From a phage: a DNA stretch of 64,000 nt. The position numbers and the translations under genes are program-made. Shown piece after piece: positions 17,790 through 24,385 of this stretch (positions are counted from its first letter, which is position 1; every line of letters starts with the position of its first letter). The notes under the pieces are model-generated. The model had not been told where the DNA came from. It worked only from the letters and a program-made list of their open reading frames with translations, and ran no database searches. Where the stretch lies: the NCBI GenBank assembly GCA_017822615.1, contig GCA_017822615.1_4530.1. One strand, given 5' to 3'.

Positions 17790-18105
17790 TATCGAATGGC
17801 GTATGTTACAGGGTGCACCTTTAAATAAGTGGGAAGAGGCTGTAGGAGAAGATCCTAGAATTGAAGAAGAATTTGACGGAGATTTTAACTGGTTCTTACA
17901 AGAAGGTCTTGACTTAAGCCGCATCTCTCCTTTCTACGATGCGGATGAGTCTTATTGCATATATGGCCTTGATTTAGAAGGCGGAGAAGGAAGCATAGCT
18001 GTAGATCTTGAGCAATTGAATGAGAATGCAAAAGAAGCCTATGCAAAGCTACTTGAAAAATATAACATTAAAACGGAAACTATTATTTCTCAACATGTCT
18101 GGTAA
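17779..18105 (+). CDS. hypothetical acidic protein
   Basis: ORF track. Confidence 0.55.
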   Translation: MGIDIEWRMLQGAPLNKWEEAVGEDPRIEEEFDGDFNWFLQEGLDLSRISPFYDADESYCIYGLDLEGGEGSIAVDLEQLNENAKEAYAKLLEKYNIKTETIISQHVW

Positions 18106-18114
18106 GGAGAACTG

Positions 18115-19107
18115 ATGCGCTATCTGGTAACAGGTGGTCTTGGTTTTATTGGGAGTGCCGTGGTGCGCTCTCTTTGTCAAGATCCCAATAACGAAGTTTT
18201 TGTCGTTGATAAGATGGGCTATGCAGCAGATATTGAGAATGTAGGCGATATCACTCACGTTAAACTGAGCATAACAGATTTGGCAAACGAAACCCAGGTC
18301 AAAAGTTTAGTAGTAGAGTGCAATCCCGATTTCATCATTCACTTAGCGGCAGAGAGTCATGTGGATAATTCTATCAAGAATCCACGAGTTTTCATCGACT
18401 CCAATATTATTGGTACATACAATTTATTGGAAGCTGCAAGGCTCCTCCCAAAAAATAAACTTAAGATGTTCGTACATGTCTCCACAGACGAAGTGTACGG
18501 CGATATGGCAGACTCTGGCGTTCCCTTTACCGAAGAGACAGCTTATGCCCCTTCAAGCCCGTACAGTGCGTCTAAGGCAGCATCTGACCATCTTGTGAAA
18601 GCTTGGTACCGTACCTACGGTTTACCTGTTGTGATAACCAACTGCTCCAATAACTTTGGACCTTATCAACATCCAGAAAAGCTGATCCCAAAAATCATCA
18701 CAAGTATCTTGACGAATAAAGAGATTCCGGTGTATGGTAAAGGCGATCAGGTGCGAGACTGGCTTTTTGTTGAGGATCATGCGCGAGCTATTCTTCAAGT
18801 GGCAACAGGTGGAGAACCAGGTCAAACGTATAATGTTGGAACACGTAATCCCAAAACCAATATGGAGATCATCTATATGGTTTGTGACTACATGGATGCT
18901 GTACATCCAGAAGCAGGAACCTACCCTTCTTCCAACTTGATAACTTTTGTTGAAGATCGTAAAGGACATGACTTGCGTTATGAAATCAATCCTTCTAAAA
19001 TAGAGTCTGAACTGGGTTGGAGTGCAAACTCTACATTTGAACAAGATCTCTACTCAACGATTGAATGGTACTTAAACAACCCTCAATGGTGGAGTGAGAA
19101 GATTTAA
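18115..19107 (+). CDS. rmlB: dTDP-glucose 4,6-dehydratase
   Basis: [15 protein letters not shown]-binding motif; YSASKAASD (YxxxK). Confidence 0.9.
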
Positions 19108-19115
19108 GGAGGGTT

Positions 19116-19994
19116 ATGAAAGGTATTATTTTGGCGGGAGGAAGTGGAACCCGCCTTCATCCGGTAACACGCAGTGTGAGCAAGCAATTGCTCCCTGTGT
19201 ATGACAAACCCATGATCTACTACCCTTTATCGGTATTGATGTTGGCTGACATTAAGGATATCTTAATCATCACCACACCAGGCGATCAGGAAGACTTTGA
19301 GTATCTTCTTGGAGATGGGTCTATGTTTGGGATAAAACTCACTTACGCAATCCAATCCAAGCCACGAGGTCTTGCGGACGCTTTCATCATCGGTAAAGAT
19401 TTTATCGGAGAAGACTCTGTTGCTCTTATTTTAGGTGACAACCTATTCTTCGGACAAAGCTTTGGTAAACTACTGATTGACGCTAGTGAGATGGTAGATG
19501 TTTGGGGCGGAGCTTGTATCTTCGGGTGTTTGGTGAAAGATCCTGAACGATTCGGTGTGGTTGAATTTGGGAGTAATCGTCAAGTTATTTCTATTGAAGA
19601 GAAACCTGAAAATCCTAAATCAGATTATGCTGTCACAGGTTTGTATTTCTATGATAACTCTGTTATTCAACGTGCATTAGAAGTAACCCCTTCCGCGCGT
19701 GGAGAACTGGAGATCACTGATATCAATCGCAGCTACCTCGAAGACAGGAAGTTACAAGTGGAAGTTCTCGGACGAGGATTTACTTGGCTTGACACAGGAA
19801 CACACGCCAGTCTGATGGAAGCTGGTCAATTCGTGCAGACTATTGAGAACTGTCAAGGATTGAAGATTGCGTGCCTGGAAGAAATTGCTTTCAAAAAAGG
19901 GTGGATTTCTTTAGAGACTTTGGTCTACCATGGAAACTCACTGAAGAAAACAGAGTACGGGCAATACCTACTCAAATTAGCGGAGGGAAAATGA
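19116..19994 (+). CDS. rmlA: glucose-1-phosphate thymidylyltransferase
   Basis: [18 protein letters not shown] nucleotidyltransferase signature. Confidence 0.9.
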
Positions 19995-20557
19995 AAGTAG
20001 AAAAAACAAAAATTGAAGGTGCGGTAATTATCAAACCAGACGTTTATAAAGACGACCGTGGTTTCTTTTTAGAAACATATAATGAACAAAAATACGAAGA
20101 TATCATTGGTAGACAAACTTTCGTTCAAGATAACATGTCTAAATCAAACTTCGGTGTTTTGCGAGGAATGCACTTTCAAACAAATAATCCGCAAGGTAAG
20201 CTTGTTCGTTGTGTAAGTGGTGAAGTATTGGATTTCGCTGTAGACTTACGTAAAGATAGTCCTACTTACGGTGCTTGGGACGGTGTTGTTCTTCGTGCAC
20301 GACACCATACGCAGTTTTGGCTTCCACCTGGTTTGGCACATGGTTTTATAGTTTTGAGTATGGATGCTATCTTTGAATACAAATGCACAACTCCATACGA
20401 CCCTTCTAGTGAAGAAAGTTTACGTTGGGATGATCCTGATATAGGGATCGATTGGGGCTTCGATATGATTTTTGATGAAGGTTTTAAACCTATCCTATCA
20501 ACAAAAGATGCAATGGCTAAATCTTTTCAACAGTTACGTAGCGAGGGTGTATGCTAA
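19991..20557 (+). CDS. rmlC: dTDP-4-dehydrorhamnose 3,5-epimerase
   Basis: [10 protein letters not shown] and GVLRGMHFQ cupin motifs; ATG 19991 after ggaggg. Confidence 0.85.
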
Positions 20558-21393
20558 CATATCTGGTATTGGGTGGTAATGGACAACTGGGACAAGCTTT
20601 ACGTAAAGTTGCCCCTGCAAATGTATCTTTAATTTATCCTAAAGAACGTGTAGATATTACAAATTTTGAAGCTGTGCGAAACGCTATTGTTGAAGATTAT
20701 GTAGATGGTGTTATTAATTGCGCCGCTTATACGGCTGTAGATAAAGCCGAACAAGATTTTGCTACTGCTTTGGCTGTTAATGCTTATGGCCCTGCAAATA
20801 TTGCGGCAGTGTGCAGCAAACTTAAAATTGATTTTGTGCATATTTCCACAGACTATATTTTTAATTATTCTCATCCTATTTTTGAAGACACTACACCTAA
20901 CCCAATAAACAATTATGGGTATACGAAAGAACTTGGTGAAAAAATGGTGCGAGGAGTTAACCCAAATGCATATATTATTCGAACAGCCTCGGTATATAGC
21001 GAATTTGGAAATAACTTTCTAAAAACTATGTTGTCTCGCTATAATGATGGACAACGTGATTTTATTATTGTTGCTGATCAGTTCTCTTGTCCAACATATG
21101 CTCCAGATTTAGCAGAAGCTATTTTTGAAGTATTAAAAACAGGTTGGTCAAGGTCTGTTAAGACTTACCATTTTGCAGGAAGCCATCTTATTTCTTGGGC
21201 GGAGTTTGCGGAAAAGATCTTGACACAGATGCCAGAACCTGTTAAGATATCGGCGGTATCAGCTTCAACCTATAATGCTCCAGCAGCACGTCCGGTGAAG
21301 TCACAACTAGTAACCAGTCACTATCTTACAAAATCAGATTTAAATAAAGGTATTGAACAGTCTTTAGCAGTATTACTTAATAAGGAGAGGTAA
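20551..21393 (+). CDS. rmlD: dTDP-4-dehydrorhamnose reductase
   Basis: LVLGGNGQLGQAL Rossmann start; completes the rml gene set. Confidence 0.8.
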   Translation: MLTYLVLGGNGQLGQALRKVAPANVSLIYPKERVDITNFEAVRNAIVEDYVDGVINCAAYTAVDKAEQDFATALAVNAYGPANIAAVCSKLKIDFVHISTDYIFNYSHPIFEDTTPNPINNYGYTKELGEKMVRGVNPNAYIIRTASVYSEFGNNFLKTMLSRYNDGQRDFIIVADQFSCPTYAPDLAEAIFEVLKTGWSRSVKTYHFAGSHLISWAEFAEKILTQMPEPVKISAVSASTYNAPAARPVKSQLVTSHYLTKSDLNKGIEQSLAVLLNKER

Positions 21394-21653
21394 TGGAATT
21401 TGTAATTTTTGGTAAACCTAACTGTCAATTTTGTGAAATGTCAAAACAACTATTGACTATGCGCAATAAACAGTTTGAATATTTAAGTCTTGACCAAGAC
21501 TATGATTTAGAATCAATGACTAAAACAGTTGTTGATCTTACCGGAGTTCCTCCACGCACATTTCCACAAATTCTGTCTGAAGTGAACGGGGAGGTAACAT
21601 ACGTAGGCGGTTTTACCGAACTGCGTGATCTCATGGCTCAAATTGCGGAGTAA
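21393..21653 (+). CDS. glutaredoxin/NrdH-like redoxin
   Basis: 86 aa; CQFC active-site motif near N-terminus. Confidence 0.7.
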   Translation: MEFVIFGKPNCQFCEMSKQLLTMRNKQFEYLSLDQDYDLESMTKTVVDLTGVPPRTFPQILSEVNGEVTYVGGFTELRDLMAQIAE

Positions 21654-21658
21654 CAATT

Positions 21659-21808
21659 ATGAAAAGTAAACAGAAACGTAAGATCTTTTCTCGTGCTTTG
21701 GCAAATGAGCTGAAGTCCAACATAAAGAAAACGAAACCAAAACGTGAAACTTCTCCAGAACATCTGTTGTTTAATGAGTTGGATCACGGAGTAGGAGACG
21801 ACGAATAG
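21659..21808 (+). CDS. small basic protein (49 aa)
   Basis: ATG after gcggag; not in track. Confidence 0.3.
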   Translation: MKSKQKRKIFSRALANELKSNIKKTKPKRETSPEHLLFNELDHGVGDDE

Positions 21809-21815
21809 GAAGTAA

Positions 21816-22316
21816 ATGGCTAAAGTAGTAGATGAGTTTGATATGCTACGAGTCGATGAAGGACTGAAGCTTACTGTTTACCAAGATCATCTTGGTTATT
21901 GGACAGTTGGCATAGGACACCTTCTGACTAAAATAAAAGATAAAGCAAAGGCTATTCAAATCTTAGATAATCTCCTTGGTCGTAAGACCAATGGAGTTAT
22001 CACAGAAAAAGAAGCCCGTCAAATCTTTGCTGACGATGTTGCAAAAGTGAAGAGAGACATAAAAAACAGTGCTATCTTATCACCAATCTATGATAAGGTG
22101 AGTGATACTCGTAAATTGGGAATAATCAACATGGTTTTCCAGTTGGGGTTAAAAGGTGCTGAAGGGTTTAAAAATAGCTTGACTTTAATCAGCAATGCAT
22201 ATTATACTCAAGCAGGTAAAAACATGCGTAAAAGCCGATGGTATAGCCAAACGCCAAACCGTGCTGAACGAGTAATTAAAGTTCTGACTTCTGGAACTTT
22301 AGATGCTTACAACTAA
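21816..22316 (+). CDS. e: T4 e-type lysozyme (GH24 endolysin)
   Basis: LRVDEGLKLTVYQDHLGYWTVGIGHLL and SRWYSQTPNRAERVIKVLTSGTLDAY closely resemble T4 lysozyme. Confidence 0.9.
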   Translation: MAKVVDEFDMLRVDEGLKLTVYQDHLGYWTVGIGHLLTKIKDKAKAIQILDNLLGRKTNGVITEKEARQIFADDVAKVKRDIKNSAILSPIYDKVSDTRKLGIINMVFQLGLKGAEGFKNSLTLISNAYYTQAGKNMRKSRWYSQTPNRAERVIKVLTSGTLDAYN

Positions 22317-22353
22317 TAAAGGGGCTTCGGCCCCTTCTAAAAGGAGTGCTACT

Positions 22354-23112
22354 ATGGGAAATAAAACCGCAGCTAAAACACAACGGCAGAAACTGGCTAA
22401 TTCAGCAAAGATTGAAAGCCGTTATGCAGCAAAAGCGGTAGGTAATGACGATTACCGTTTAGATGAATTTATGCCTGAAGGGGACCAAAATAAGATTGTT
22501 CAAAGCATGATTTGGAATGATCTGACTGTTGTAAATGCTCCGGCAGGGACTGGTAAAACCTCTGTTGCTTTATGGAAAGCTTTGCAGATGCTTCGTTCAG
22601 GAGACTTCCGTAAACTACTTTTTATCAAGAACCCTACTGAAGTCGGAGATGATCAGATTGGTTTCTTGTCTGGAGATAAAACAGATAAACTAGCAGCACA
22701 CTATGAATCTACAAAACGTATTTTCCAGCAATTCATGACAGCCAACAAATTGGAAAACGATATTGGATCAGGTAAGATCGAATTGAATATTCCTAACTAT
22801 TTGTTGGGGGCCACCTTGGATAATACAATCGTCATTATTGACGAAGCACAACTTATGTCAACAGAAACACTTAAACTTCTTATTGAACGTGCAGGTATTA
22901 ATACGCATGTTATTGTATTAGGCGATGTTCGCCAGACATATGCAATTAAAAAACGTAGCAATGGTCTGCATCAAATTTTGGAACTTTTATATCCAGAAAA
23001 TGAAGAAGGTGTTCGTGAGCCAATTGTAGATTTTATTGGATACGTTGAACTGACAACGGACGATAATAAACGTGGACGTTTGTCTAAACTGATTACTGAA
23101 GTGTTTGTTTAA
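22354..23112 (+). CDS. phoH: PhoH-like ATPase
   Basis: Walker A NAPAGTGKT; ATG 22354 after aaaaggag. Confidence 0.85.
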   Translation: MGNKTAAKTQRQKLANSAKIESRYAAKAVGNDDYRLDEFMPEGDQNKIVQSMIWNDLTVVNAPAGTGKTSVALWKALQMLRSGDFRKLLFIKNPTEVGDDQIGFLSGDKTDKLAAHYESTKRIFQQFMTANKLENDIGSGKIELNIPNYLLGATLDNTIVIIDEAQLMSTETLKLLIERAGINTHVIVLGDVRQTYAIKKRSNGLHQILELLYPENEEGVREPIVDFIGYVELTTDDNKRGRLSKLITEVFV

Positions 23113-23147: not shown

Positions 23148-23648
23148 ATGGGTGTAGCAACAATAGCTATCGGAAGAAGCGGTATAGATGAGTGCTATCA
23201 AACGGGACTCGTAAAACCTAACGAATTTCGTCAAATTTGTGTAAACCATATTGAAAAAGAGATTGCTCTTACTTTAGAGAATATGACCCTCCGAGATAAA
23301 CTGGAAATGTTTAAATGTTGGTGTCTAGGAGAAGATTGGCTTTTAAACCATTTTCAAGAACTTTCTGATAGTAAAGAAAGCTTGTTTGATTGTATAATAG
23401 GAATAGCTGGCTCCGATCCTAGCCTTCTGCACATAACAGAAGAAGAGGCGAAGTTACTGTTCTTAAGTAATTTGTTTAATAAGAAAGCACTGCTTGTTCG
23501 TGATTGTAGTGATCTTCTTAATAACCCGCTCGCAACGTCTGATCAAATTTTTGTTGACAAAGAGACACTACGTGCGATAGAATACATCTGCAAATATGTG
23601 AATGGCGGGAAAGCGGTTCTTAAAACATTAACAGAGGAGGAAGAATAG
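23148..23648 (+). CDS. hypothetical protein
   Basis: ORF track; RBS aggagg. Confidence 0.55.
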   Translation: MGVATIAIGRSGIDECYQTGLVKPNEFRQICVNHIEKEIALTLENMTLRDKLEMFKCWCLGEDWLLNHFQELSDSKESLFDCIIGIAGSDPSLLHITEEEAKLLFLSNLFNKKALLVRDCSDLLNNPLATSDQIFVDKETLRAIEYICKYVNGGKAVLKTLTEEEE

Positions 23649-24340
23649 TGACGACAATTATTGCAACCAAAAATAAGATTTTGAGTGACGGTAAGGTAAC
23701 TTTTGGTGGACGTGTAGATTCTATTAATTTCAAAAAGGTCCGAAAAATTGGAGATTACCTTGTAGGTGGTGCTGGTCGTCTGACCTCCGTGCTTTCTTTC
23801 TTTCAATGGTTTGAACAAAATCTACAGTGCGAAGCAGCACGTGATGCTGTCCCTGGTTTGATGATTCACTCTGATCCAGACAAAGAAGATGAAGAGTTTA
23901 TTGCACTTGTTGTTCATCCAGACGGACGTATTTTCCTGCATGAAGGTAACAACCCAACACGTGCATATCCGATTGATGAAGAATATTATGCAGTAGGAAG
24001 TGGGTCAGATTTTGCTTTAGCTGCTCTTGACGCAGGGGCAACACCAGAACAAGCTATGGAAGTAGCTAAAAAGCGAGATGCTTTTTCTGGTGGTGAAACA
24101 TTTGTTGAAGAACAAGATGAGATTATTGAATTAACAGACGATGATTTAGAAAACTTCTCCAAAGAAGAATTAATCAATCTTTTGAAATTCGGTAATCCCT
24201 ACGGTGAAGAAGAACCTCGTAACGTGGCAGGTAACGAGGCGGATACTGAAGAAAAATCTGTTGCAGAAAACAACTTGACTTCTAAATCTGAAAATATTAA
24301 TCTCGTAAATGTGGCGGATTTCGAAGGAACCGCTATTTAA
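23648..24340 (+). CDS. HslV-like N-terminal-nucleophile peptidase with acidic C-terminal extension
   Basis: MTTIIAT...KKVRKIGDYLVGGAG...AVGSGSDFALAALDAG aligns with E. coli HslV (MTTIVSV...KKVRRL...AGFAGG...AIGSGGPYAQAAA); Thr at position 2. Confidence 0.7.
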   Translation: MTTIIATKNKILSDGKVTFGGRVDSINFKKVRKIGDYLVGGAGRLTSVLSFFQWFEQNLQCEAARDAVPGLMIHSDPDKEDEEFIALVVHPDGRIFLHEGNNPTRAYPIDEEYYAVGSGSDFALAALDAGATPEQAMEVAKKRDAFSGGETFVEEQDEIIELTDDDLENFSKEELINLLKFGNPYGEEEPRNVAGNEADTEEKSVAENNLTSKSENINLVNVADFEGTAI

Positions 24341-24346
24341 CAAACT

Positions 24347-24366
24347 GCCCCTTCGGGGGCATTTCT
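24347..24366 (+). terminator. terminator-like hairpin (UUCG tetraloop)
   Basis: gccccttcgggggc followed by atttctt. Confidence 0.55.
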
Positions 24367-24385
24367 TAAACATAGGAGATTAATA

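What the first reader, a model, noticed from the sequence alone, without database searches (positions are those of the whole stretch)
23648..24340. Phage-encoded HslV-like peptidase with a long acidic tail
The protein aligns with E. coli HslV from its N-terminus (MTTIIAT versus MTTIVSV; KKVRKIGD versus KKVRRLYN; GGAG; AVGSGSDFALAALDAG versus AIGSGGPYAQAAARAL), so Thr2 would become the N-terminal nucleophile once the initiator Met is removed. It carries an extra C-terminal extension of about 90 residues rich in Asp/Glu. No HslU-like ATPase is nearby (the neighbour is PhoH). A phage proteasome-like protease could remodel host proteolysis or degrade defence proteins, or could be a decoy for host HslU.
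Basis: partly seen in the sequence, partly recalled or inferred. Interest (0 to 1): 0.6.

Follow-up and report, generated by a model that had tools for sequence, protein, structure and literature searches.

The report
Phage proteasome-like peptidase, acidic tail
This coliphage gene encodes an already-annotated proteasome/HslV-type threonine peptidase of a phage-specific branch that has lost the features HslV uses to work with its ATPase, and carries a conserved docking-like helix plus an acidic disordered tail; its biological role has not been tested.

Summary
Window 23648-24340 (+) encodes a 230-aa protein homologous to HslV/proteasome beta subunits. The catalytic set (Thr directly after Met, Asp14, Lys30, Gly-Ser-Gly 117-119) is near-invariant across 234 relatives.

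It is not new. The window is a Phapecoctavirus (phAPEC8-like coliphage). More than 60 GenBank records carry a nearly identical gene (>=98.7% protein identity in those listed), many annotated 'peptidase HslV family' (PHROG 1040). It fits the phage proteasome homolog 'PPH' group of Fuchs et al. 2021.

It is not an HslV ortholog:
- NCBIfam HslV models score 31-32 bits against cutoffs of 137-158.
- Helix H2 is replaced by an acidic loop.
- HslV's basic pore residues are charge-reversed.
- No HslU, ClpX, Lon or ClpP homolog exists in the whole phage genome or in 83 related loci.

The best reading is an ATPase-independent, BPH-like self-compartmentalised Thr peptidase.

The tail is about 75 residues, not about 90. 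It has a conserved helix motif (S/T-K-E-E-L-L type) followed by a hypervariable, disordered segment that is acidic in 91% of tails.

The gene closes an operon and is translationally coupled to a lineage-specific unknown protein (gpX) downstream of PhoH. Substrates and role are unknown.

Interest is modest.

The parts
23648..24340 (+). Whole ORF (230 aa plus stop): proteasome/HslV-superfamily peptidase of the phage 'PPH'-type branch
   Evidence: a 100% identical protein cluster exists in the database (P0001); annotated 'peptidase HslV family' in NC_048196 gp078
23634..23640 (+). Shine-Dalgarno-like GAGGAGG, 7 nt before the GTG start; lies inside the 3' end of the upstream ORF
   Evidence: read directly from the sequence
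23651..23653 (+). Thr2 codon: predicted N-terminal nucleophile after removal of the initiator Met; no propeptide
   Evidence: M-T-T-I start is kept in the family: T2 in 221 of 223 non-gap sequences; E. coli hslV also starts GTG-ACx (MTT)
23648..24112 (+). Ntn-hydrolase core, residues 1-155. Includes Asp14 (23687-23689), Lys30 (23735-23737) and Gly117-Ser118-Gly119 (23996-24004)
   Evidence: AF2 pLDDT above 90 over most of the core. Conservation: D14 224/226, K30 226/229, G117 and G119 234/234, S118 218/234 plus 15 Thr
23849..23899 (+). Acidic loop (residues 68-84, VPGLMIHSDPDKEDEEF, net -5) in place of HslV helix H2 and its basic pore cluster; contains the family motif D-E-E-F
   Evidence: AF2 shows no helix between H45-67 and E84-89. 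EcHslV R86/R89/K90 align to K79/E82/E83. The loop is net negative in 86% of 233 relatives (median -4), against +3 in E. coli. Parallel with the acidic pore loop of BPH (PMC5777263)
24128..24193 (+). Conserved tail motif, residues about 161-182 (IELTDDDLENFSKEELINLLKF): two short predicted helices
   Evidence: AF2 helices 164-169 and 172-181, block pLDDT 81-85. The strict motif [ST][KRY][EAKD][EQD][LIM][LIVM] occurs in 40 of 68 tails among 50%-identity representatives, against 0.18 expected from shuffles and a maximum of 2 in 1000; seen in members down to core scores of about 91-95 bits
24194..24337 (+). Hypervariable, predicted-disordered acidic tail (residues 183-230)
   Evidence: pLDDT below 50 for residues 189-224. 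Sequence and length are not conserved, but tails are net negative in 91% of representatives, median -13
24346..24367 (+). Intrinsic-terminator-like hairpin (TGCCCC-TTCG-GGGGCA) plus T-run, 6 nt after the stop codon; ends the transcription unit
   Evidence: RNA fold -15.3 kcal/mol, z = -3.6, 0 of 200 shuffles as stable
23148..23648 (+). Upstream ORF 'gpX' (166 aa, PHROG 14834, unknown function); its TAG stop overlaps the peptidase GTG (taGtg), suggesting translational coupling
22303..23112 (+). PhoH-family P-loop ATPase (GenBank start corresponds to window 22354); conserved third member of the PhoH-gpX-peptidase gene order
   Evidence: Pfam PhoH 1.2e-36; synteny
23554..23583 (+). Sigma-70-like promoter match (TTGACA-18-TAGAAT, 11/12) inside gpX, 65 nt upstream of the peptidase start; weak evidence only
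   Evidence: 21 promoter-like sites in the region against 17 +/- 4 in shuffles, so not enriched

Best explanation
The gene encodes a catalytically competent N-terminal-threonine peptidase of the proteasome/HslV superfamily. It belongs to the phage-specific compact branch that Fuchs et al. 2021 call PPH and that PHROGs lists as family 1040.

Shown here:
- After removal of the initiator Met, Thr2 becomes the nucleophile. The Asp, Lys and Gly-Ser-Gly active-site residues are kept throughout the family.
- Helix H2 is replaced by an acidic loop.
- No unfoldase is encoded in the phage genome.

Inferred:
- The protein assembles into an HslV/BPH-like double ring with internal active sites.
- It works without an AAA+ partner, as proposed for bacterial BPH, on unfolded or short and probably basic polypeptides.

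The roughly 75-residue tail has two parts. A conserved two-helix motif (..LT.E....SKEELL..L.) is inferred to be a protein-docking or ring-stabilising element. A hypervariable, disordered stretch, acidic in 91% of tails, is inferred to recruit or gate substrates or partners electrostatically.

The gene is the last in an early/middle-type operon (lysozyme - PhoH - gpX - peptidase - terminator) and is translationally coupled to gpX. It is not the head-maturation protease.
For: Family and fold:
- Pfam Proteasome above its cutoff.
- PHROG 1040, 9.7e-64.
- PDB HslV hits by sequence.
- AF2 core pLDDT above 90.
- Foldseek top hits BPH 5ovt, HslV and 20S beta, probability 1.00.

Catalytic residues are near-invariant in 234 relatives down to about 27% identity.

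PPH-type features:
- H2 is absent, as stated for PPH/RPC in PMC8665760.
- The family is large and dominated by proteins of about 137-155 aa.
- It occurs in many Caudoviricetes: Escherichia, Vibrio, Caulobacter, Aeromonas and Rhizobium phages.
- The tailed form is absent from 185,579 bacterial species genomes.

ATPase independence:
- There are no tblastn hits for HslU, ClpX, Lon or ClpP in the window, in the rest of a complete relative's genome, or in 83 related loci.
- The same screen finds HslU next to true HslV in 14 bacterial loci.
- Phage HslU homologs exist, but not in any listed Phapecoctavirus record.
- HslU-pocket residues 79/80 lie in the missing H2.
- R89/K90 are replaced by conserved Glu or Asp, as in the partner-less BPH.

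Tail: the motif is strongly enriched over shuffles and the acidity is conserved. Residues 189-224 are predicted disordered.

Operon end: terminator.

Not the prohead protease: a separate Peptidase_S78_2 gene sits next to the portal gene.
Against: - No biochemical or genetic data exist for this protein or its close relatives in the searchable literature.
- Oligomeric state, activity and substrates are all inferred.
- BPH, the nearest partner-less analogue, showed no activity on standard substrates (PMC5777263). 'Works like BPH' therefore does not specify a reaction.
- Some HslU-pocket positions are retained (EcHslV F57 aligns to the conserved F52), and the host does encode HslU, so use of the host ATPase is not excluded.
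- The phage has a divergent AAA+ protein (gp174) whose function is unknown.
- The roles proposed for the tail rest only on conservation patterns. I could not inspect model coordinates to see whether the helices pack on the core.
Confidence: 0.6

Rival explanations
1. It hijacks, or acts as a decoy for, the host HslU ATPase. Either it forms a hybrid HslU-phage-peptidase protease with altered specificity, or it titrates HslU away from host HslV.
For: True homology to HslV starting at residue 1. The host E. coli encodes HslU. The phage encodes none. One pocket residue is conserved (EcHslV F57 aligns to F52).
Against: - NCBIfam HslV equivalogs score 31-32 bits against cutoffs of 137-158.
- Helix H2, which carries pocket residues 79/80, is missing.
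- Q114 aligns to a variable position.
- The R86/R89/K90 cluster, whose mutation severely reduces HslV activity, is replaced by K/E/E.
- The family also occurs in Caulobacter, Rhizobium, Vibrio and Aeromonas phages with the same architecture, and only about 27% identity to EcHslV is retained.
- A pure decoy would not need invariant catalytic residues.
Confidence: 0.1
2. It is one component of a phage-specific three-part module, PhoH ATPase + gpX + peptidase. gpX would be an adaptor or regulator and PhoH the energy-dependent partner, possibly linking RNA or nucleoprotein remodelling to proteolysis.
For: - The trio is adjacent in all 25 loci of the close tailed clade, while downstream genes vary.
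- The gpX stop overlaps or abuts the peptidase start in 21 of 25 loci.
- PhoH stays within 0.2-2.7 kb in more distant Aeromonas and Vibrio phages and in loci L024-L028.
- One deletion in phage VEcB removes parts of all three genes at once.
Against: - All these phages may share ancestral gene order. The lysozyme-PhoH-...-peptidase order is part of a longer syntenic block with NrdAB and Grx, so adjacency may be inherited rather than functional.
- gpX is undetectable outside the Stephanstirmvirinae-like clade; hhalign probability is below 1% for the positional counterparts.
- PhoH is an SF1-helicase-like P-loop NTPase, not a known protein unfoldase.
- Short PPH members and phiCbK have no PhoH nearby.
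Confidence: 0.12
3. It is an Ntn enzyme with a non-degradative chemistry, such as a site-specific processing protease, a transpeptidase or ligase like connectase, or an amidohydrolase acting on a small molecule. It would then not be a compartmentalised bulk peptidase.
For: The proteasome superfamily includes the ligase connectase, and several homologs may not form rings (PMC8665760). BPH shows no activity on standard protease substrates. Some GenBank records use the neutral label 'nucleophile aminohydrolase'.
Against: Closest sequence and fold relatives are HslV, BPH and 20S beta, all ring-forming peptidases. The full proteasome-type catalytic set is retained. No ligase-specific features were looked for or found.
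Confidence: 0.1
4. It is a catalytically irrelevant or dispensable relic: an accessory gene carried along without a significant role.
For: The VEcB record carries an in-frame deletion that removes the catalytic N-terminus, yet that phage was isolated and propagated.
Against: Catalytic residues and the tail motif are under clear purifying selection across thousands of clusters: 4,478 at E<=1e-10. The gene is present in essentially all Phapecoctavirus and Justusliebigvirus records sampled. A second VEcB assembly has the intact gene.
Confidence: 0.05

Closest known systems
[quoted passage not shown]
   Same: Group-I (HslV-derived) proteasome homolog found in tailed phages. Compact core lacking helix H2. 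Thr1/Asp/Lys catalytic set. No propeptide. No partner ATPase described.
   Different: PPH is described as about 140 residues. This protein has a 155-residue core plus a 75-residue tail with a conserved helix motif and an acidic disordered segment, which that paper does not mention for PPH. A direct comparison with the published PPH representative (WP_042125023.1) could not be made with these tools.
HslV (ClpQ), the peptidase of the bacterial HslVU protease
   Same: Same fold and the same N-terminal MTT start with Thr nucleophile, Asp17, Lys33 and Gly-Ser124-Gly. About 27% identity over about 157 residues.
   Different: Fails the HslV equivalog models. No adjacent or genome-encoded HslU. H2 is missing. 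R89/K90 are replaced by Glu/Glu, and pocket residues 79/80 are absent. Has a C-terminal tail that HslV lacks.
BPH (Betaproteobacteria proteasome homolog; PDB 5ovs/5ovt; PMC5777263)
   Same: Top Foldseek hit. HslV-derived. No partner unfoldase. Acidic sequence at the pore-loop position in place of HslV's basic cluster.
   Different: Only about 21% identity. BPH keeps H2 and has an elongated pore loop. BPH is chromosomal in bacteria, forms heptameric rings and has no C-terminal tail. The oligomeric state of the phage protein is unknown.
[quoted passage not shown]
   Same: PPH-like core lacking H2, plus extra C-terminal sequence.
   Different: RPC is reported only from Proteobacteria genomes, with folded C-terminal domains. 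The tailed family here was not found in 185,579 bacterial species genomes, and its tail is mostly disordered. No sequence comparison was possible.

Membership tests
Proteasome/HslV superfamily (Pfam PF00227; Ntn-hydrolase fold) | Score above the Pfam gathering threshold | tested here: met
   25.6 bits against a cutoff of 22.4, E=1.1e-5
Proteasome/HslV superfamily (Pfam PF00227; Ntn-hydrolase fold) | Alpha-beta-beta-alpha Ntn fold matching solved proteasome-family structures | tested here: met
   AF2 core pLDDT above 90. Foldseek hits to BPH, HslV and 20S beta at E about 1e-10, probability 1.00, target-normalised TM 0.53-0.70
Proteasome/HslV superfamily (Pfam PF00227; Ntn-hydrolase fold) | N-terminal Thr nucleophile with Asp17, Lys33 and Gly-Ser-Gly equivalents | tested here: met
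   T2, D14, K30 and G117-S118-G119 are aligned to the E. coli residues and near-invariant in 234 relatives
HslV proper (peptidase of HslVU) | Scores above the NCBIfam equivalog cutoffs (NF003964, TIGR03692) | tested here: not met
   32.2 and 31.4 bits against cutoffs of 137 and 157.75
HslV proper (peptidase of HslVU) | A cognate HslU ATPase encoded with it (typically immediately downstream) | tested here: not met
   No HslU, ClpX, Lon or ClpP hit in the window, the rest of the genome or 83 related loci. Positive control: HslU found next to true HslV in 14 bacterial loci
HslV proper (peptidase of HslVU) | Helix H2 with the HslU-tail pocket residues (79/80) and the basic pore cluster Arg86/Arg89/Lys90 | tested here: not met
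   No helix between residues 68 and 83 in the model. R86/R89/K90 align to K79/E82/E83. Pocket residues from PMC6429459; basic cluster from PMC5777263
HslV proper (peptidase of HslVU) | Dodecameric double hexamer activated by HslU | not testable with these tools
   No multimer prediction or biochemistry available
PPH (Fuchs et al. 2021) / PHROG 1040 | Membership of the phage 'peptidase HslV family' profile | tested here: met
   PHROG 1040 E=9.7e-64 over residues 1-229. Tail-less relatives also match
PPH (Fuchs et al. 2021) / PHROG 1040 | Lacks helix H2 of the proteasome fold | tested here: met
   One search compared with the definition
PPH (Fuchs et al. 2021) / PHROG 1040 | Found in tailed phages (and prophage regions) | tested here: met
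   236 phage records across Escherichia, Vibrio, Caulobacter, Aeromonas, Rhizobium and Klebsiella phages; IMG/VR loci
PPH (Fuchs et al. 2021) / PHROG 1040 | Compact size of about 140 residues | tested here: inconclusive
   Most distant relatives are 137-155 aa. This protein has a 155-aa core plus a 75-aa tail
PPH (Fuchs et al. 2021) / PHROG 1040 | Clusters with the published PPH representative WP_042125023.1 | not testable with these tools
   The sequence cannot be fetched by accession here
BPH | Acidic pore region and no partner unfoldase | tested here: met
   Loop 68-84 has net charge -5 with a conserved D-E-E-F motif. No unfoldase found. BPH properties
BPH | Bacterial chromosomal gene; retains H2 with an elongated pore loop; heptameric rings | tested here: not met
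   Strictly viral distribution. H2 is absent. Ring symmetry is not testable. Only 21% identity
RPC | PPH-like core with C-terminal domain, found in Proteobacteria genomes | tested here: not met
   No close relative in 185,579 species genomes except a 425-bp contig. The tail is mostly disordered
Phage prohead (head-maturation) protease | Located in the head module next to portal, scaffold and capsid genes; S78/S80/U9/U35-type fold | tested here: not met
   The gene lies among nucleotide-metabolism and PhoH genes. A separate Peptidase_S78_2 gene follows the portal gene in the same genome

The most novel reading that the evidence does not exclude
The tailed phage peptidases may form a distinct, strictly viral machine. 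In this reading an ATPase-independent proteasome-like ring uses a conserved docking helix and acidic, nucleic-acid-mimicking tails, together with the translationally coupled gpX and the neighbouring PhoH ATPase, to capture basic host nucleic-acid-binding or defence proteins and destroy them early in infection. The hypervariable tails and the swapped C-terminal modules (Zn-ribbon-like, Trp-rich and helical domains in relatives) would reflect an arms race over targets.
Probability: 0.1. Interest if true: 0.65.

Novelty: already known. Interest (0 to 1): 0.3.

Why it matters
Phage-encoded proteasome homologs are widespread: 4,478 clusters at E<=1e-10. I found no report of a measured activity, substrate or phenotype for any of them. 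If the peptidase is active without an unfoldase, it would be a simple viral counterpart of BPH. It would also offer a tractable route, in a coliphage, to the open question of what partner-less proteasome homologs do. The conserved tail motif, the acidic pore loop and the gpX/PhoH linkage give concrete, testable handles. As it stands, the finding mainly confirms an existing annotation and refines it: not an HslV orthologue, and unlikely to dock HslU.

Tried and rejected
1. Phage-encoded unfoldase partner. tblastn with E. coli HslU, ClpX, Lon and ClpP found nothing in the window, the rest of a complete relative's genome or 83 related loci.
2. gp174, the one AAA+ candidate in the genome, lying outside the window. 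It is a generic AAA protein (PF00004 29.9 bits; AAA_2 below cutoff; no PDB sequence match; no GYVG-type pore loop in the sequence). Its distribution (Enterococcus, Bacillus, Staphylococcus and Lactococcus phages) does not track the peptidase. Rejected as a dedicated partner.
4. Positional counterparts of gpX in Vibrio qdvp001 (gp057) and Aeromonas 2L372D (gp209). No significant homology by HMM, hhalign or BLASTP.
5. P0023 (159 aa) as a natural tail-less variant. Rejected: it is an annotation starting at internal Met72 and it keeps the tail.
6. Defence-system membership. No PADLOC hit for the peptidase, gpX or the downstream ORF.
7. Prohead-protease role. Rejected on location and on the presence of a separate S78 protease.
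8. Known domain in the tail. Pfam at E<=10 on the whole protein gives only Proteasome. A remembered resemblance to SAP/HeH or Rho_N motifs was not supported and is not claimed.
9. Literature searches for experimental work on phage HslV-like or PPH proteins, virion proteomics or expression data returned only genome reports and the 2021 bioinformatic survey.
10. tRNA scan of the window: none found.
Full report
WHAT IS THERE

The window is part of a Phapecoctavirus (phAPEC8-like E. coli myophage). A 3.1-kb stretch around the feature is 99.3-99.7% identical to the 20 best-matching of 71 GenBank phage records. ORF 23648-24340 (+) encodes 230 aa from a GTG start, preceded by GAGGAGG 7 nt upstream.

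In the relative Schickermooser (NC_048196) the same gene, gp078, is already annotated 'peptidase HslV family'. Other records call it 'ATP-dependent protease subunit HslV', 'putative 20S proteasome' or 'nucleophile aminohydrolase'.

HOMOLOGY AND ACTIVE SITE

The protein matches several independent references:
- PHROG 1040 'peptidase HslV family', E=9.7e-64, full length.
- Pfam Proteasome above its gathering threshold.
- Solved HslV chains by sequence; T. maritima 1m4y gives E=5.3e-9 over residues 12-160.

An AlphaFold2 model built on 70 homologs is confident over residues 1-155. Foldseek places it with BPH, HslV and 20S beta subunits at E about 1e-10.

In an alignment that includes authentic E. 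coli HslV, taken from the MG1655 genome, the phage residues T2, D14, K30 and G117-S118-G119 fall on Thr1, Asp17, Lys33 and Gly123-Ser124-Gly125. Across 234 family members these positions are near-invariant: T2 221/223, D14 224/226, K30 226/229, G117 and G119 234/234, and S118 218/234 plus 15 Thr.

Nearly all members begin M-T-T (a few begin M-T-C), so there is no propeptide. Removal of the initiator Met would expose the nucleophile, as in E. coli HslV, whose gene also starts GTG-ACx. This conservation is strong evidence for an active enzyme, not a decoy.

NOT AN HslV ORTHOLOGUE

The NCBIfam HslV equivalog models score only 32.2 and 31.4 bits, against cutoffs of 137 and 157.75.

The model has one long helix (residues 45-67) followed by a 16-residue loop (68-83) where HslV has helix H2. 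[quoted passage not shown]

An exhaustive profile search finds 10,026 clusters at E<=1e-3 and 4,478 at E<=1e-10. The nearest roughly 60 are tailed proteins of 180-330 aa. Beyond them lies a large population of 137-155-aa proteins, which is the PPH size.

In GenBank phages the family occurs in Escherichia (107 records), Vibrio (36), Caulobacter (28), Aeromonas (15), Rhizobium (12) and Klebsiella (10) phages.

A scan of 185,579 bacterial species genomes returned only genuine HslV-HslU operons and one 425-bp contig 99% identical to the phage gene, probably contamination. The tailed form therefore appears strictly viral.

NO UNFOLDASE PARTNER

tblastn with E. coli HslU, ClpX, Lon and ClpP gave no hit in three places:
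- the 64-kb window;
- the remaining 98 kb of the Schickermooser genome;
- 83 related loci with 6-kb flanks.

The same screen found HslU immediately downstream of true HslV in 14 bacterial loci, so it works as a positive control. HslU homologs do exist in phages, but in Erwinia and Salmonella jumbo phages and contaminant-like records; none of the 30 listed records is a Phapecoctavirus.

The one AAA+ protein in the genome is gp174, which lies outside this window. It is a divergent generic AAA protein, below the cutoff for the Clp/HslU-type AAA_2 model. Its distribution is different: it is common in Enterococcus, Bacillus, Staphylococcus and Lactococcus phages. I reject it as a dedicated partner.

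DOCKING OF HOST HslU IS UNLIKELY

PMC6429459 names EcHslV Phe54, Phe57 and Gln114, with residues 79/80, as lining the pocket that receives the HslU C-terminal tail.
- Residues 79/80 lie in the missing H2.
- Gln114 aligns to a variable position.
- Only Phe57 is conserved, as F52.

PMC5777263 reports that HslV's basic cluster Arg86/Arg89/Lys90 at the pore entrance is important for activity. It also reports that the partner-less BPH has an acidic pore loop there instead. In the phage family these positions align to K79/E82/E83, inside a nearly invariant D-E-E-F motif. The loop (residues 68-84) has net charge -5, against +3 in E. coli. It is net negative in 86% of relatives.

The protein therefore resembles BPH in working principle: HslV-derived, acidic pore, no ATPase. 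It is not a BPH member: identity is 21%, H2 is absent, and it is viral.

THE TAIL

The fold ends near residue 155, so the extension is about 75 residues (20 D/E, 5 K/R, net -15), not about 90. It has two parts.

First part: residues about 161-182 (IELTDDDLENFSKEELINLLKF) are predicted as two short helices, with block pLDDT of 81-85. They carry a motif of the type (L/I)T.E....(S/T)K(E/D)(E/Q)(L/I)(L/I). Among 50%-identity representatives, 40 of 68 tails of at least 25 aa have the strict motif within the first 40 tail residues. Shuffled tails give 0.18 on average and at most 2 in 1000 trials. The motif persists in members with core scores as low as about 91-95 bits.

Second part: residues 183-230 are predicted disordered. 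This part is not conserved in sequence or length, but tails are net negative in 91% of representatives, with a median of -13. In some relatives it is followed by extra modules.

The pattern is a conserved proximal helix plus a variable acidic distal segment. I infer a docking or ring-stabilising element followed by an electrostatic recruitment or gating element. This is inference only. I could not inspect model coordinates or run multimer predictions.

GENOMIC CONTEXT

The gene is followed 6 nt after its stop by a stable hairpin plus T-run, so it ends a transcription unit. Its GTG overlaps the TAG of an upstream 166-aa ORF, gpX (PHROG 14834).

In all 25 loci of the close tailed clade the order PhoH - gpX - peptidase is kept. 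In 21 of them gpX ends within -4 to +9 nt of the peptidase start. Genes downstream differ.

gpX homologs share only 29-35% identity between distant members. They are confined to this phage lineage and give a confident helical model with no known structural relative.

More distant Aeromonas and Vibrio phages keep PhoH within 0.75-2.1 kb (0.2-2.7 kb across loci L024-L028) but have non-homologous small ORFs at the gpX position. phiCbK and the short family members have neither.

Because these phages also share a longer syntenic block (NrdAB, Grx, lysozyme), I cannot separate functional linkage from inherited gene order. I therefore keep a PhoH-gpX-peptidase module as a minority hypothesis.

The gene is not the head-maturation protease. 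A Peptidase_S78_2 gene sits next to the portal gene in the structural module.

DISPENSABILITY HINT

The VEcB record (MT932211 / NC_052663) contains an in-frame fusion of PhoH residues 1-113 to the peptidase from about residue 64. That corresponds to a deletion of about 1.18 kb removing the PhoH C-terminus, all of gpX and the catalytic N-terminus. A later VEcB assembly is 1,183 bp longer and has the intact gene. Either the trio is dispensable in laboratory culture, or the first assembly is faulty.

LITERATURE

I found no experimental study of any phage HslV-like or PPH protein. Genome papers only note an HslV gene without HslU (for example PMC7823757). The 2021 survey is purely computational.

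VERDICT

The gene is a known, annotated member of the phage proteasome-homolog family.
- High confidence: it is an active Thr peptidase of the PPH branch.
- Moderate confidence: it works without HslU, in a BPH-like manner.
- Low confidence: the specific tail and gpX/PhoH roles proposed above.

The refinements made here:
- It fails the HslV orthologue models.
- Its pore residues are charge-reversed relative to HslV.
- Its tail combines a conserved motif with an acidic, disordered segment.
- It is translationally coupled to gpX.

These are useful but incremental, so interest is modest (0.3).

Noticed in passing
window 23148-23648 (+): gpX: a 166-aa lineage-restricted protein (PHROG 14834). Its AF2 model is very confident (pLDDT 91.8), but it has no recognisable fold in the PDB. 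Its stop codon overlaps the peptidase start.
   Followed up: yes
GenBank MT932211.1 / NC_052663.1 (phage VEcB) 21498-22298; protein P0067: In-frame fusion of PhoH residues 1-113 to the peptidase from about residue 64, implying a deletion of about 1.18 kb that removes the PhoH C-terminus, gpX and the catalytic N-terminus. A later VEcB assembly (OZ035773, +1,183 bp) has the intact gene. This is either a viable natural deletion or an assembly artefact.
   Followed up: partly
L088:3432-3983 and L088:4001-4885 (Aeromonas phage 2L372D): Two adjacent Ntn-type homologs: a very divergent 183-aa protein (starts MTCII) directly upstream of the tailed 294-aa family member. This could be a hetero-oligomeric pair.
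   Followed up: partly
proteins P0061-P0064, P0068, P0076-P0080, P0092: Some relatives carry additional C-terminal modules after the acidic tail: CxxC...CxxC plus a Trp-rich end (W[RK]LHNA), a helical domain, or a Cys-rich acidic stretch (CDECSCCEDSDCEE). None has a Pfam match.
   Followed up: partly
proteins P0155, P0160, P0180, P0184, P0231: A few short-core family members have basic (Lys/Arg-rich) tails instead of acidic ones, the opposite charge pattern to the main tailed clade.
   Followed up: no
It is probably the prohead protease and is misannotated.
   Followed up: no
L087:31387-32526 (NC_048196 gp174; outside this window): Divergent 379-aa AAA+ ATPase (PHROG 2376) of unknown role, widely shared with Herelleviridae-like and other large phages. 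It has no match among PDB sequences.
   Followed up: partly
L091 (JAPMLR010000072.1, 425 bp, Lysobacteraceae genome assembly): A 425-bp contig 99% identical to this coliphage gene inside a bacterial genome assembly; probably contamination.
   Followed up: no
GenBank records listed (e.g. OP562383 'Acinetobacter phage', MG065689 'Campylobacter phage'): Records labelled as Acinetobacter phage (98.7% protein identity here) or Campylobacter phage (the same 68.2% match as E. coli Justusliebigvirus records) match E. coli phages of this subfamily. A Pseudomonas-labelled record is also among the DNA matches. The host labels look doubtful.
   Followed up: no
window 23554-23583 (+): Near-consensus sigma-70-like promoter (TTGACA-18-TAGAAT) inside the 3' end of gpX, 65 nt upstream of the peptidase start. 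Promoter-like matches are not enriched in the region, so its significance is unclear.
   Followed up: partly
window about 17900-21700 (+): The phage carries a full set of dTDP-sugar (rmlA-D-like) genes, a glutaredoxin and NrdAB just upstream of the lysozyme-PhoH-gpX-peptidase block.
   Followed up: no
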